Shown: in pieces, positions 886 to 62,702 of the stretch
Layout of the letters: each line of letters begins with the position of its first letter
Position numbering within the stretch: position 1 is the first letter of the stretch
Source of the DNA: Stegostoma tigrinum
Lineage: Eukaryota
Direction of reading: 5' to 3'
DNA length: 64,000 nt
Assembly (NCBI RefSeq): GCF_030684315.1
Contig: NC_081391.1
Coordinates: forward strand, 20,854,629-20,918,628
Made by a program: the position numbers and the translations under genes
Notes under the pieces: model-generated
What the model was told of the DNA's origin: nothing
The model's input: only the letters and a program-made list of their open reading frames with translations
Database searches by the model: none

Positions 886-2631
886 ATGGTTTCCCAAGTG
901 TGTCAGAACTACCACAAGGACTGTGAGGATGCTGTTAACAAGCAGATCAACCTGGAGCTCTATTCCTCCTATGTTTACCTCTCCATGGTGAGCATTGTTG
1001 TGTACAAGGTCCCTTCTTTCTCATTGTCTGGCCCCCACCCTGTCAAGGGTAACTAGGGGTGGGCAATATGCTGATGTCTATGTCTATGTCCTATGTGTTT
1101 CACAATTGGCTTTGACTTTATGGCTTGGTTGGATTGGCTTGAAATGAAGTCTGTCCAATGACTTGGTGAATGTTTCTTACCTCATTCACTCCATTCAAGT
1201 CTGCTTTTGTGCTTGGTTAACTGATGACTCTGCATTCCATAAACTTGGTTTTACTCTGAACTGTTTTGAGACATAAATCCAAGGTTCCTTGTAGCTGGAT
1301 GACTGTCATGATGCATGAACCTGCTCAATTTCTAATCAACTCTGTTGTGACTAGGTGATGCATGTGTGATACACAAATAACTACTTATGACTCCTCTGCC
1401 TGTTTCTGAATGAGTATAATCCTGTTGGCCTCTTCAAATGCAGGGAGAAACTATTTTCTTTGCTTGCCTGAATTAACAGACCATAACACCCCTGTAGACA
1501 TGATCTCTACTCATTCTTTGTACTATTGTGCTTGTTTGGCTTGCATTCTATTTTTTCCCCTGCCTCAAGTTGATAAACTACACAGGCTCTTGTTGAATCT
1601 CTGGGTGAGATCTGGGGCTTGCCTGACTTTGCCACTTTTGTCCTCTTCTCCCACAGGTCTCTTACTTTGACCGGGATGATGTTGCCCTGCATCACTTTGC
1701 TGAGTTCTTCAAGGAGCAGTCCCATGAGGAGCGGGAACATGCTGAGAAACTGATGGTATTCCAGAATAAACGTGGGGGCTGGGTCCTATTACAGGACATC
1801 AAGGTTGGTCTATCTTCCTACACCTGAACTAGACATGTCTTTGAAGCTTGAATTTCTGCTGCTGGAATACCACGATGCTATATGGCACGAGTCCTTAGTT
1901 ACCCTTCAATTTTTGCACTGACATATCTGCCTCTTTTCTCCCCACCCCCTCCCTCCAGAAGCCGGAGCAGGATGAGTGGGGCAATGGTCTGGAGGCAATG
2001 CAGAGAGCTCTGCAGATGGAGAAGGATGTGACCCAGAGTCTGCTGGATCTGCACAAACTGGCCTCTGGCCACACGGACCCTCATGTGAGTTCCTGATGAA
2101 CCTTGAGATATTGAGGGTGGCATTTGCAATCGGCCCTGCATTCCATATTGGTTAAGGTCCATGTAAACTTGTTTTTGTAACAACCACTACTATTACTTGT
2201 CTCAGTGACCAATCTGCTTGCTAGTGATAAATAAGTATCTGGGGTGAAAATTATGTTTCTCTTTCAATGGAATTAGCTTGACATTTGTGTGCAAGTCGAG
2301 CTTGTTCTTCCTTCTGGAACACTTGTAGCTGTGGTGGTGAGTTTAGCCTGTTCCTATGGATGGCTACAGCAGCTGATTTTTTTTTTTTTTTTTTTTTTTT
2401 TTTCTTTACCAAATTGGTCTTCAGGTTACTTTTATAATGTCTGTCTGAACTAATTCCATCTCTTGCTCTCTCCAGCTGTGTGACTTCCTGGAGAGGCACT
2501 ACTTGGACGAGCAAGTGAAGATGATCAAGAAGCTGGGAGATCACATCACCAACCTGAAGAGACTGGGAGCCCCTGCCAATGGCATGGGAGAGTACCTGTT
2601 TGACAGGCTCACCCTGGGGGAGAGTGACTGA
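886..2631 (+). CDS. Ferritin H/M-type subunit, copy 1, intact, 176 aa
   Basis: Exons 886-987, 1657-1803, 1959-2084, 2476-2631 (102/147/126/156 nt), all GT-AG and phase 0. Translation [65 protein letters not shown].../KPEQDEW...[18 protein letters not shown]...LTLGESD*. Equivalents of human-H ferroxidase ligands E27, Y34, E62, H65, E107, Q141 present. AATAAA at 2733-2738. Confidence 0.95.
2376..2402. repeat. Poly-T tract in intron 3 of copy 1
   Basis: Run of about 27 T. Confidence 0.9.
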
Positions 2632-3479
2632 ACTGACTGCAGGCAGTGAGCTTGTTGTCATGTGTCTGAATGGGAGCCCTGTAGAGACTTCTCCTTTTTG
2701 TCGGAGCAGCTCATTGTCCTGCACCGAGAGTAAATAAACTGCTCAATATTGGACTGTCTTGCCTTCATTTCTGGGTTAATCCTTGCTGTGAGCTGTTCTG
2801 TAGCTTGATCCTGTTTTTGGTTCTGTTCTTGCTGATGGGGACAGTCTCTTCCCACCCCCACCCCACTGGGCTGTGGGTTTCAATGTCTGGTGCAGACAAC
2901 TGCCTGGACATACTTGTCTTTGGCATGGTGAGCTGCTCCCTTGAGCCACCCTCTATCTTGTATAGATGGACCCACAATACCCTTGAAGGAAGGAATTGGC
3001 TCTGACCCAGGAATGGCTGATTGTCCTGTCCTTCTCAGCAAAAGGACCAACTGAGCAGAGGGCTGTAACTCATCAGGCAAACCTGAGTGTTATTGAGAGG
3101 GAAAACTGATTCCAGTAAGTTAAGCATAACCAACAAATCCCAGCACTTCTGAGTTTGAATTAATGATCAAGTTTAAGATTAAGCTTGGGGAACTTTAGTT
3201 TTAACGTCGGCATCTTCTCAATCAACCTGTTGATTATCCTTACACTCCACTGCAGCAGGTGGGGTTTGAATTGTCTCCCAGACAACAACAGGTAGGGATG
3301 CTACCCCTGCACCACGAAGGGGTCTGCAAAACACAGCCTGCCAATTGTACACATTAGGAGAGAGCCAATATTCAATTTCATCCTGATTTTACTTTTATTG
3401 GCTTGTCAAGGTATCAGTTATTGTTCAGCTCCTGGGGAGTATTGGCAAAGGCCTAGGGTGCAGGGACAGTTCCTCAGAT

Positions 3480-59570: not shown

Positions 59571-60445
59571 GTGGCAGTGGGCAGATATGAAAGCCGAATT
59601 AAAAAGGCCAGAACGTGCTCAGTTTCCCCCCAAGCCGGCTGGACAACAAAACAGCATGTGTTGTAATACAACAGCATAGAAGTGGCATCAGAGCACATTT
59701 GGAGCGCTGTGCTGAGCTCTGACAGGGTTATTTGAGGGACCTTAGCACAGATTCACCAGCATTTTCTCAGCCCCAAGCTGGTTACGTTATGAATACAGTT
59801 TACATCAACTAGCCTTGTCCTTGCAAGAGTGTGGAAGACTCAAGAACGAATATTATCCAGGTACATTGGATTATTAATGGATCTAATCGTGCCGTTAGAC
59901 AATGTACTGTTTCCTGTGGCGAAGTAATCCTGGAAAAGGGGGAATAATCTTCAGATCAAAGCTATGGTAATCAGTGATGATGCTTTTTTTTCTCAAACAT
60001 TATATTATCACTCCCAACATTCTGCAAGTCAATTGGACATTTCAAAACTGATTTGTTGAGCTGTGTTAGTTCAGAATATGATGTGATGTGGAACCCAGGC
60101 AAAGGTATTAAATGAAGACACAGACTCGCACTGATATAGTTGAATGGGGGAACAGGCTTGAGAGGCTGAATGGTCTCATTATCACAGAATAATAATCTGA
60201 ACCTGACTGTTGCCCAAATCTCTGGTTGACTCTGGGTCAGCTCATTGCACCACACACCCTCTCCTTTGTTCATTGGTGCCTGGGTTCTTGGAGATTCCTG
60301 ATTTGCTGCCAGAGATTGTCAATCATTGTTAGTGATGTCATCCCTGGCTGAGAATGGGATGTCCCAGGAATATAAATACAAGAGTTTGTCATAGTGTAGC
60401 TTAGTTTTAGAGTTGTCTAGGTGATAGTGAGCAGCAATATTGATG

Positions 60446-62702
60446 ATGGCCTCCCAAGTGTCTCAGAACTACCACAAGGACTGTGTGAGGATGCTGTTAA
60501 CAAGCAGATCAACCTGGAGCTCTATTCCTCCTATGTTTACCTCTCCATGGTGAGCCTAGTGTTCTCTGGGTTTATTTCAGATTTAAAGCTGCAATCATGT
60601 TGTATTGAGGGGGTATGATTTCTTAGCCTTGTTTGACTCATGTGTAATGTTCTGGTGTAGCCCCCTCCCTTACTTGGAGCAGTGAATACTTTCTTGGACA
60701 GTTTGATCCCTCAAATTCTCAATGCTTTGTTGATGTGTGGTCTAAAAGTTACTTGCCTCCTTAATGTATTAGGATTCACTGCCTTGAATAGACAATCTTT
60801 CTCAACCTGGTGAGATACTGACCTACCCTGACAGCTTGTGAGGCACAACTGGGCTGTTGTCTCCCAGAGCTAGGAGTATGTCTGCTACCCTGAGCCTGAA
60901 TAGCTGCAAAATCTGTACTAATTTACTTGTCCCAAACTGAATTCAGAGCTGGGAGTTGTTTCCTTCTGTTGGAAAGTGTCTTCACTGAAGTTAAATCTTT
61001 TGTCATATGGGTAATGGCCAATGAGATGTTTCTCTTTAACACCAAAATTTTAAAAGTTATTGAACTCTCTTGTAAGGAGACAATCACTTTGTTTCAGTCC
61101 TACTTCCCAAGGGGAACTTATACCTATAGGCTTGGAATGGTAGACTAGCGTGAAGGTAAATGACATGAGATTTGGGGACATGCTTTTCTGATGAGGGGTC
61201 CTGACATGACATGTCAGTTTTCCTGCTCTCCTGCTACCTGGCCTCTGTTCCTCCAGCACCACTGTTATCTTGGACTCTAACACTGGCAATTCTTACTCTC
61301 TGGCTATGCAGTTGCTTAGCCTGCTTACCTTATTGCTTGACCTTGACTAAAGTAGTTGGGGATGACATACTGAACTTGTATAGGAAGCTCCTTCTGGAGT
61401 ATTGTGTCCAGTTACAGTTGCACAATTATAGGAATGACTCCTTTGGACAATGGTCAGGATGTTGCCAGGACTGGAGGGTTTGCAATCAAGGATGGGCTGT
61501 GACCTTCACTGGAGATTGTGGGGGTGAACTTGTAGAAGTTTGTAACATCATAGGTGGCATGGACAGGGTGAATGGCCCAAGTGAGTTCAAAACTAGGGGC
61601 CCATATGATTAACGTCAGGGTAAAGATGTATAAGGGGCCTGAGGGACCACTCCTTCTTTTGAGGGAGGTTTGTATGGGACTGAGCTGCCAAAGGAAGCAA
61701 CAGATGAAAGTACAGCTAAACATCTTGAAGGCATTTGAACAAGCAAATGAATAGAAAGCTTAGAGGGACATAGGGCCAAACTGTGAAGTAGGAGTAGTTT
61801 GGTTTTGGTGAGCGGGGGGGGGGGGGGGGGGGGGGGGCGGCGGCTGGTGGATTTAGCCAGCATAGGCTGTGTGCTGCAATGACTCTAAGTGAGGCTTTTG
61901 CCATGAGTTAAAAGGGTGGCACTTCTCCTTCAACTAGATAAGAGACTTGTCAGCAGCAATGGTGATGTTTTCTGTCTCCCACAGTTCTCTTTGACCAGGA
62001 TGATGTTGCCCTGTATCACTTTGCTGAATTCTTCAAGGAGCAGTCCTGAGGAGCAGGAACATGCTGACAAACTGATGGTGTTCCAGAATAAACGTGGAGG
62101 CCAGGTCCTCCTGCAGGACGTAAAGGTTGGGGCTTAGTGTCTCTCTTGCAAGACTTGCAGTAATAGTGCTAGATATGGATTTGAAGCAATTAACTCTTTT
62201 GGTCTGGTAACATTATATGCCACATGAATTCACTTTTTTAATGGATAAACTGACTTAAGTGTCTGCCTCTATCCTCCCTGTCCTCCAGAAGCCAGAGCAG
62301 GATGAGTGGGCAATGGTCTGGAGGCAATGCAGAGAGCTCTGCAGATGGAGAAGGATGTGAACCAGAGTCTGCTGGATCTGCACAAACTCGCCTCTGGCCA
62401 CATGGACCCTCATGTGAGTACTACACAATTTTTTTTTTTGTCTGAAGGCGATAAGGCATTTTTTCTTGAGGTTAAATGTACCTATTCACCTAGCACTGAG
62501 CATTTGAAGTACAAAGCTGCTTTCTGCTCAGTGAGCTACTCATTTCTTTATCCAGCTGTGTGACTTCCTGGAGAGGCACTACTTGGATGAGCAAGTGAAG
62601 ATGATCAAGAAGCTGGGAGATCACATCACCAACCTGAAGAGACTGGGAGCCCCTGCCAATGGCATGGGAGAGTACCTGTTTGACAGGCTCACACTCAGCT
62701 GA
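60446..62702 (+). pseudogene. Ferritin copy 11, multiple frameshifts, short C-terminus
   Basis: TATA 60371-60378; exon 1 60446-60549 (+2 nt), exon 2 61985-62125 (-4 and -2 nt), exon 3 62289-62413 (-1 nt), exon 4 62556-62702 open (LTLS*). Confidence 0.9.
61185..61880 (+). mobile_element. Degenerate Penelope-terminal repeat plus CR1 3' fragment in intron 1 of copy 11
   Basis: CTGATGAggggtc at 61188; ORF segment ILNLYRKLLLEYCVQL resembles CR1; poly-G at about 61814-61837. Confidence 0.5.

What the first reader, a model, noticed from the sequence alone, without database searches (positions are those of the whole stretch)
886..62702. Exon-restricted homogenisation: near-identical exons inside unalignable introns
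Seen: exon 1 at 886 and 9391 look identical by eye, and exons 3-4 differ by only a few bases, including silent sites and in dead copies, yet flanking introns of different classes cannot be aligned (e.g. copy 1 vs copy 6 vs copy 10 intron 1). Similarity drops within a few bases of the splice sites. Inference: purifying selection alone would not hold silent sites and pseudogene exons; ongoing gene conversion limited to exons, possibly cDNA-templated, fits better.
Basis: partly seen in the sequence, partly recalled or inferred. Interest (0 to 1): 0.7.

Follow-up and report, generated by a model that had tools for sequence, protein, structure and literature searches.

The report
Shark ferritin array homogenises coding exons
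In a shark array of about a hundred or more ferritin genes, the coding exons are about 94% alike while most introns no longer align, likely because copies overwrite each other DNA-to-DNA using the exons as anchors rather than through RNA copies.

Summary
The window is part of a tandem array of four-exon ferritin M/H-type genes in a carpet shark (101 units in the 634 kb examined, with further members about 1.6 Mb apart). Among the 9 full window genes, coding identity averages 94%, while only 2, 5 and 2 of 36 intron pairs align. Across the array, fourfold-site divergence plateaus near 11% whether introns are 19% diverged or unalignable. In recent sister copies these sites diverge faster than introns, so they are not frozen: the exons evolve in concert. 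Donors are most likely genomic DNA. Three window genes carry whole introns from other lineages, with switch points at exons. UTRs are not homogenised, 0 of 316 introns are precisely lost, and 4 of 5 intronless retrocopies elsewhere have drifted 6.5-17%. The dead-copy argument is weak. Coding-restricted conversion is known (KRTAP1, protocadherins, yeast duplicates). This case differs in scale, in having 100-150-nt exon islands, and in intron swapping; I did not find the array in print.

The parts
886..2631 (+). Ferritin gene, intact, 176 aa (E1 886-987, E2 1657-1803, E3 1959-2084, E4 2476-2631; three phase-0 GT-AG introns)
5376..5477 (+). Orphan exon 1, remainder missing
9391..9492 (+). Extra exon 1 with its own TATA-like promoter, 102/102 identical to 886-987, 350 nt upstream of the next exon 1
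9843..13201 (+). Ferritin gene, lesioned (E2 acceptor lost, 5-nt deletion in E4)
15162..17416 (+). Ferritin gene, lesioned (no ATG, early stop); introns 67-78% alignable to the 886 gene
19906..20761 (+). 5'-truncated copy (half of E2, E3, E4)
25421..29993 (+). Ferritin gene, lesioned (E1 start lost, stop codon)
34007..36686 (+). Intron-mosaic gene (stop at codon 127): 5' flank, intron 1 and 3' flank of one lineage (96/91/88%), introns 2 and 3 of another (93/89%)
39052..41588 (+). Ferritin gene, lesioned (frameshift in E2)
42554..45684 (+). Decayed copy without E1; E4 split by an insertion
51595..53304 (+). Intron-mosaic gene with a GC donor at intron 1: flanks and intron 1 are 98-100% like its sister, intron 2 is 90% like another lineage
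54276..57138 (+). Ferritin gene, intact, short-tail (173 aa) class
60446..62711 (+). Intron-mosaic lesioned gene: 5' flank to intron 2 are 96-98% like its sister, intron 3 is 90% like another lineage

Best explanation
The coding exons of this shark ferritin array share variants across unrelated intron lineages, most likely because copies overwrite one another by DNA-templated gene conversion that can pair only where sequence is still alike. Shown: exon divergence plateaus while introns diverge to chance level; exon variants are independent of intron lineage and of position in the array; whole introns have been exchanged between lineages with switch points at exons. Inferred: selection on the protein keeps exons free of indels and alignable; introns, UTRs and promoters escaped long ago through indels and insertions; most tracts are short and end at the heterology beside splice sites; a few are anchored in two exons and carry the intron between them; copies that decay past roughly 7-10% stop being converted.
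For: (1) Plateau: fourfold-site p is 0.034 at non-coding p 0.012 (17 pairs), 0.122 at 0.189 (101 pairs), and 0.107 in the 1859 of 2211 pairs with under 400 nt of alignable non-coding DNA. (2) Silent sites are not frozen: in 13 sister pairs, non-CpG fourfold sites differ at 17/739 (2.3%) against 207/23318 (0.9%) in introns, Fisher p=0.0006. (3) For 27 of 66 non-CpG sister differences both alleles occur in at least 2 distant lineages, against 9.6 expected. (4) Among 38 lineages, linkage is at null (r2 about 0.025) beyond 3 nt, exon-exon rho is -0.09 to 0.05 and exon-intron rho is -0.05. (5) Intron swaps with double switches in the 34007 and 51595 genes, a single switch in 60446, and more outside the window. 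Swapped introns are 7-11% diverged from the donor lineage, so they are not assembly chimeras. (6) Codon 159 is D in 53 of 66 copies and E in 2, while E is the majority state in 7 of 8 outgroup shark groups and in the two old retrocopies that cover it: a spread across intron lineages. (7) Array proteins of other sharks group by taxon whatever their tail class, while an escaped paralogue groups across orders (quick tree, SH-aLRT 87-93). (8) GC at fourfold sites is 64% against 42% in introns.
Against: No decline of exon similarity with physical distance up to about 600 kb (rho -0.003), although cis conversion usually falls with distance. Recurrent mutation at tolerant sites could inflate points 3 and 4. 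Overall non-CpG exon versus intron divergence in sisters is not significantly different (1.10% vs 0.89%, p=0.13). Intron swaps prove DNA donors for long tracts, not for every short tract. The intron gradient away from splice sites is mild (15-17% to 22% on the donor side) and could be splice constraint. Orthologous arrays of other species could not be compared as DNA.
Confidence: 0.8

Rival explanations
1. Exons are refreshed by reverse-transcribed mRNA acting as a trans template, alone or as the main source of short tracts.
For: Germline cDNA of this family has been made at least 5 times (retrocopies on C17, C11, C2, C43, C23). Boundaries sit at splice sites. There is no distance effect. Spliced contigs occur in runs of two other organisms.
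Against: cDNA cannot move introns, yet introns moved. UTRs fall to 55-77% aligned match, like the promoter. 0 of 316 introns are under 90 nt. Four intronless retrocopies, ideal cDNA targets, have drifted 6.5-17.4%. The fifth is perfect only in E4 (0/156), with 5/51 differences in its E3 part, so its perfect stretch stops at the exon junction as a genomic donor would (one case only).
Confidence: 0.07
2. Birth-and-death evolution with strong purifying selection on amino acids and on synonymous codons of a highly expressed gene; no exchange between copies is needed.
For: Selection is present: non-degenerate sites 1.9% versus fourfold 7.2% from the majority sequence in 39 clean genes. GC3 is 68%. 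Recent block duplications exist. Lesioned copies may simply be young. Exon majority letters differ little in two related organisms among the rows shown.
Against: Fourfold sites diverge faster than introns in sisters, so they are not constrained. It gives no account of intron mosaics, of absent linkage, or of the codon-159 spread.
Confidence: 0.08
3. Repeated unequal crossing-over inside exons, rather than non-reciprocal conversion, does the mixing.
For: Single-switch mosaics exist (60446; 93248 outside the window), and copy number evidently changes.
Against: Double switches that restore both flanks (34007, 51595). Sister blocks keep gene order over about 100 kb while their exons change. Linkage is lost within a few nt.
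Confidence: 0.04
4. Assembly or polishing artefact that collapsed the exons.
For: None found beyond the general risk in repeats.
Against: Copies carry private lesions shared only with their sisters. Short-read contigs reproduce both sister versions of intron 1 and the mosaic intron 3. The laid runs may include the source sample.
Confidence: 0.01

Closest known systems
Mammalian KRTAP1 tandem genes (bioRxiv 10.1101/282418; read first quarter of the text and passages)
   Same: Concerted coding regions with radiating flanks, an abrupt switch at start and stop codons, reverse transcription rejected by the UTR test, short-tract conversion plus selection favoured.
   Different: Four intronless copies. 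Here about 100 or more copies have four 102-156-nt exon islands, each mixed independently, with intron swaps, pseudogenes and retrocopy controls.
Yeast whole-genome duplicates under concerted evolution (review PMC3924837, passages)
   Same: Concerted evolution restricted to the coding region, non-coding homology undetectable, explained by selection keeping coding DNA convertible.
   Different: Gene pairs on different chromosomes, not a large multi-intron tandem array.
Teleost and mammalian clustered protocadherins (PMC1852091, passages)
   Same: Regional homogenisation among tandem paralogues, including silent sites, with raised GC3.
   Different: Conversion covers part of one large variable exon and leaves other coding parts divergent; here all coding exons are homogenised.
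Avian MHC class IIB (PMC5470263, passages)
   Same: Short-tract conversion reshuffles single variants within exons among old lineages; introns are expected to have long unalignable regions.
   Different: Few copies, diversifying immune genes.
Vertebrate ferritin middle/heavy subunit
   Same: Pfam PF00210; best solved matches are ferritin middle subunit, E 6.5e-85; 176 aa, four exons.
   Different: No Rfam match in the window, so no iron-responsive element at gathering score; very high copy number; 173- and 176-aa tail classes.

Membership tests
Coding-restricted concerted evolution by gene conversion | Synonymous divergence far below non-coding divergence among paralogues | tested here: met
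Coding-restricted concerted evolution by gene conversion | Synonymous sites not themselves frozen | tested here: met
   sister pairs 2.3% vs 0.9%
Coding-restricted concerted evolution by gene conversion | Coding history decoupled from flank and intron history | tested here: met
   rho -0.05, linkage at null
Coding-restricted concerted evolution by gene conversion | Paralogues group by species while flanks group by orthologue | tested here: inconclusive
   Protein half met (quick tree on 90% cluster representatives); flanks of other species were too fragmentary in contigs
Coding-restricted concerted evolution by gene conversion | Non-reciprocal transfer seen de novo | not testable with these tools
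   needs sperm or pedigree data; double switches are consistent with it
cDNA-templated conversion (RT model) | Germline reverse transcription of the mRNA | tested here: met
   5 processed copies
cDNA-templated conversion (RT model) | Precise intron loss at the locus (model as stated in PMC3652778, passages) | tested here: not met
   0 of 316 adjacent exon pairs closer than 90 nt
cDNA-templated conversion (RT model) | UTRs hitch-hike with the coding sequence | tested here: not met
cDNA-templated conversion (RT model) | No intron sequence transferred | tested here: not met
   intron swaps
Vertebrate ferritin M/H subunit | Ferritin domain and closest solved relatives | tested here: met
   run on P0012, which is identical over 168 aligned residues to an array copy outside the window
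Vertebrate ferritin M/H subunit | Ferroxidase ligands (roles recalled): E24, E58/E59, H62, E104, Q138 | tested here: met
   present in the majority translation; position 141 is M rather than the D recalled for frog M ferritin; activity not tested
Vertebrate ferritin M/H subunit | 5' UTR iron-responsive element | tested here: not met
   no Rfam family at gathering score in the window; weaker thresholds not run

The most novel reading that the evidence does not exclude
Sharks have kept, since before their orders split, a megabase ferritin array that behaves as one exon gene pool: dozens of ancient regulatory and intron chassis persist while their four coding exons are continually rewritten from any copy in the array regardless of distance, and the reach extends occasionally to another chromosome (the C17 retrocopy whose exon 4 alone is perfect). 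One protein would thus be tuned array-wide under many promoters.
Probability: 0.35. Interest if true: 0.7.

Novelty: new variant of a known kind. Interest (0 to 1): 0.5.

Why it matters
It gives an unusually well-controlled vertebrate case for asking how short a homology island (102-156 nt here) can sustain ectopic conversion and at what divergence copies escape. Sister blocks act as clocks, retrocopies as trans controls and intron swaps as donor markers. It also warns that coding-sequence trees date such duplications far too young, and it flags a very large ferritin expansion, apparently without iron-responsive elements, across sharks whose function is open.

Tried and rejected
An exact exon1-exon2 junction pattern found no match in the genome; natural retrocopy junctions used as queries then found four more retrocopies. 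Dating the C11 retrocopy by its 3' UTR failed: no parent in the genome search or the fetched loci, so the ages of four retrocopies are unknown. The run search listed no RNA holder on record; this says nothing on expression in this species. Contigs of related organisms were too fragmentary to match orthologous introns. The careful protein tree did not finish; the quick one is cited, built on 59 of the 120 listed hits, chosen by hand as near full length, plus 12 array copies. My first intact/broken call (33 intact) was too strict and was redone (39 clean of 74 full genes). One gene was wrongly set aside as divergent and another inflated by compensating indels: the first is absent from the 67-gene statistics, the second was dropped, and both from the lesioned group. 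GENECONV and RDP were not available. No earlier scan findings were returned. Paper searches pairing ferritin with shark, cartilaginous, elasmobranch or middle-subunit terms listed no description of this array. Two shark genome papers have no 'ferritin' in their main text; their supplements were not seen and may list the cluster, and subscription journals are not covered.
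Full report
What it is. The window (G000:C50:20,854,629-20,918,628) holds 13 whole or partial copies of a four-exon gene on the + strand. The first copy splices to a 176-aa protein. A protein matching an array copy over all 168 aligned residues hits Pfam Ferritin and has ferritin middle subunit as best solved relatives. The nearest named proteins are from carpet sharks, and the matching one is labelled Stegostoma tigrinum. In 634 kb of contiguous sequence I found 101 units, 74 with all four exons and 39 of those clean. Near-identical members also lie at 19.95 and 21.55 Mb and on contig C216. 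About 200 copies is an extrapolation, not a count.

Observation. Exon 1 at 886 and 9391 is identical. The nine full window genes average 94.1% coding identity and 11% difference at fourfold sites, while 2, 5 and 2 of 36 pairs have alignable introns 1, 2 and 3. Identity falls to chance within about 20 nt of splice sites. Short-read contigs reproduce introns at single-copy depth, including both sister versions of one intron, and collapse the exons, so the pattern is in the DNA.

Is it selection alone? No. Fourfold-site divergence rises with non-coding divergence only to about 0.11-0.12 and stays there for the 1859 of 2211 pairs with almost nothing non-coding left to align. In 13 recent sister pairs, non-CpG fourfold sites diverge faster than introns (17/739 vs 207/23318, p=0.0006), and 27 of 66 non-CpG exon differences involve alleles found in at least two distant lineages, against 9.6 expected. 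All non-CpG exon sites together are not significantly faster than introns (p=0.13). Among 38 lineages, linkage between 30 informative sites is at null beyond 3 nt and the exons are mutually uncorrelated; mutation hot spots could contribute to this. A derived residue at codon 159 is in 53 of 66 copies, while the outgroup state survives in 2 copies and in two old retrocopies. In a quick protein tree, array copies of Heptranchias (7 rows), Pristiophorus with Pristis (15 rows) and carpet sharks (24 rows) each group together whatever their tail class, while an escaped paralogue groups across orders. Lineage-specific expansion could also give that tree. Selection on the protein is present as well (non-degenerate 1.9% vs fourfold 7.2% in clean genes).

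What is the template? Genomic DNA is favoured. Gene 34007 has the 5' flank, intron 1 and 3' flank of one lineage (96, 91, 88%) and introns 2 and 3 of another (93, 89%). Gene 51595 matches its sister at 98-100% in flanks and intron 1, but its intron 2 is 90% like a third lineage; both sisters share a GC donor, so the swap came after that change. Gene 60446 switches lineage at exon 3. More mosaics lie outside the window. [quoted passage not shown] None of 316 adjacent exon pairs is closer than 90 nt. Five processed copies show that germline cDNA is made, but four have drifted 14.9, 17.4, 7.8 and 6.5% from the majority sequence. The fifth, on C17, is perfect in exon 4 (0/156) with 5/51 differences in its exon 3 part and, by my reading of the alignment, four private changes in about 113 nt of UTR. 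That fits one ectopic event from an intron-bearing donor, but it is a single case and its true parent may be lost. In favour of a trans template, exon similarity shows no decline with distance along the array.

Dead copies. Lesioned genes (27) are 3.5% from the majority sequence and clean ones (39) 2.8%; six decayed copies are 10.8% away with equal rates at non-degenerate and fourfold sites. Recent death and continued conversion cannot be told apart, and some copies have clearly escaped.

Mechanism. Shown: plateau, decoupling, intron swaps, coding-only boundary. Inferred: protein selection keeps exons alignable, short DNA-templated tracts mix them among many donors and stop at heterology, longer tracts anchored in two exons carry introns, and drift beyond about 7-10% ends conversion. 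High GC at fourfold sites (64% vs 42% in introns) fits GC-biased conversion but also codon preference.

Known parallels. KRTAP1 genes show the same coding-only pattern and reject reverse transcription by the same UTR test (10.1101/282418; first quarter and passages). Yeast duplicates (PMC3924837, passages), protocadherins (PMC1852091, passages) and avian MHCIIB (PMC5470263, passages) are related cases. Culex vitellogenin tracts include introns and promoters (PMC2875236, passages). The RT model predicts intron loss (PMC3652778, passages). Five searches on ferritin in sharks and fishes and one on unalignable introns listed no account of this array; two shark genome papers lack the word ferritin in the main text (supplements not seen).

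Verdict. A real and clear pattern with a known kind of mechanism, at unusual scale and with unusually good internal controls. The cDNA hypothesis is unlikely. New variant of a known kind; interest 0.5.

Noticed in passing
G000:C50 about 20.585-20.69 Mb vs 20.70-20.81 Mb (L009-L030): An inverted duplication of about 100 kb with sister genes 0.5-5% diverged in non-coding DNA; the window itself has older inverted sisters about 280-390 kb upstream.
   Followed up: partly
window 9391-9944; also about 435 kb upstream: A doubled exon 1, each with an upstream promoter-like region, occurs twice in the array; possibly alternative first exons.
   Followed up: no
L001:4905-5235 (-), L061, L062, L081, L082: Five processed ferritin copies on other contigs; the C11 copy's 3' UTR has no recognisable parent in the genome.
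   Followed up: yes
window 1-64000: No iron-responsive element or other Rfam family at gathering score; promoters carry TATA- and CCAAT-like boxes by eye.
   Followed up: partly
array-wide, exon 4 end: Tail classes LTLGESD (176 aa), LTLS (173 aa) and a +1 variant LTLGEE occur in several intron lineages and in other sharks.
   Followed up: partly
window 44167-44200: In the decayed copy, exon 3 is followed by a short remnant of intron 3 and a few bases like the start of exon 4: an imprecise deletion, not a clean intron loss.
   Followed up: no
window 5800-7190 and 13777-13877, 19694-19791, 24604-24739, 31312-31542, 37676-37763, 41160-41369, 45467-45569, 46312-46413, 57331-57449: A dispersed retroelement-like repeat and its roughly 90-nt end; one insertion splits exon 4 at 45468-45571. 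Family not identified.
   Followed up: no
window:500-3200, run X7 (organism B): Contigs spliced at this gene's introns lie at very high summed depth on the exons, hinting at strong expression of the family in some tissue; library not on record.
   Followed up: no
protein P0100 and relatives: A divergent ferritin paralogue (SLEDSS-type tail) has escaped homogenisation and stays orthologous across shark orders.
   Followed up: partly
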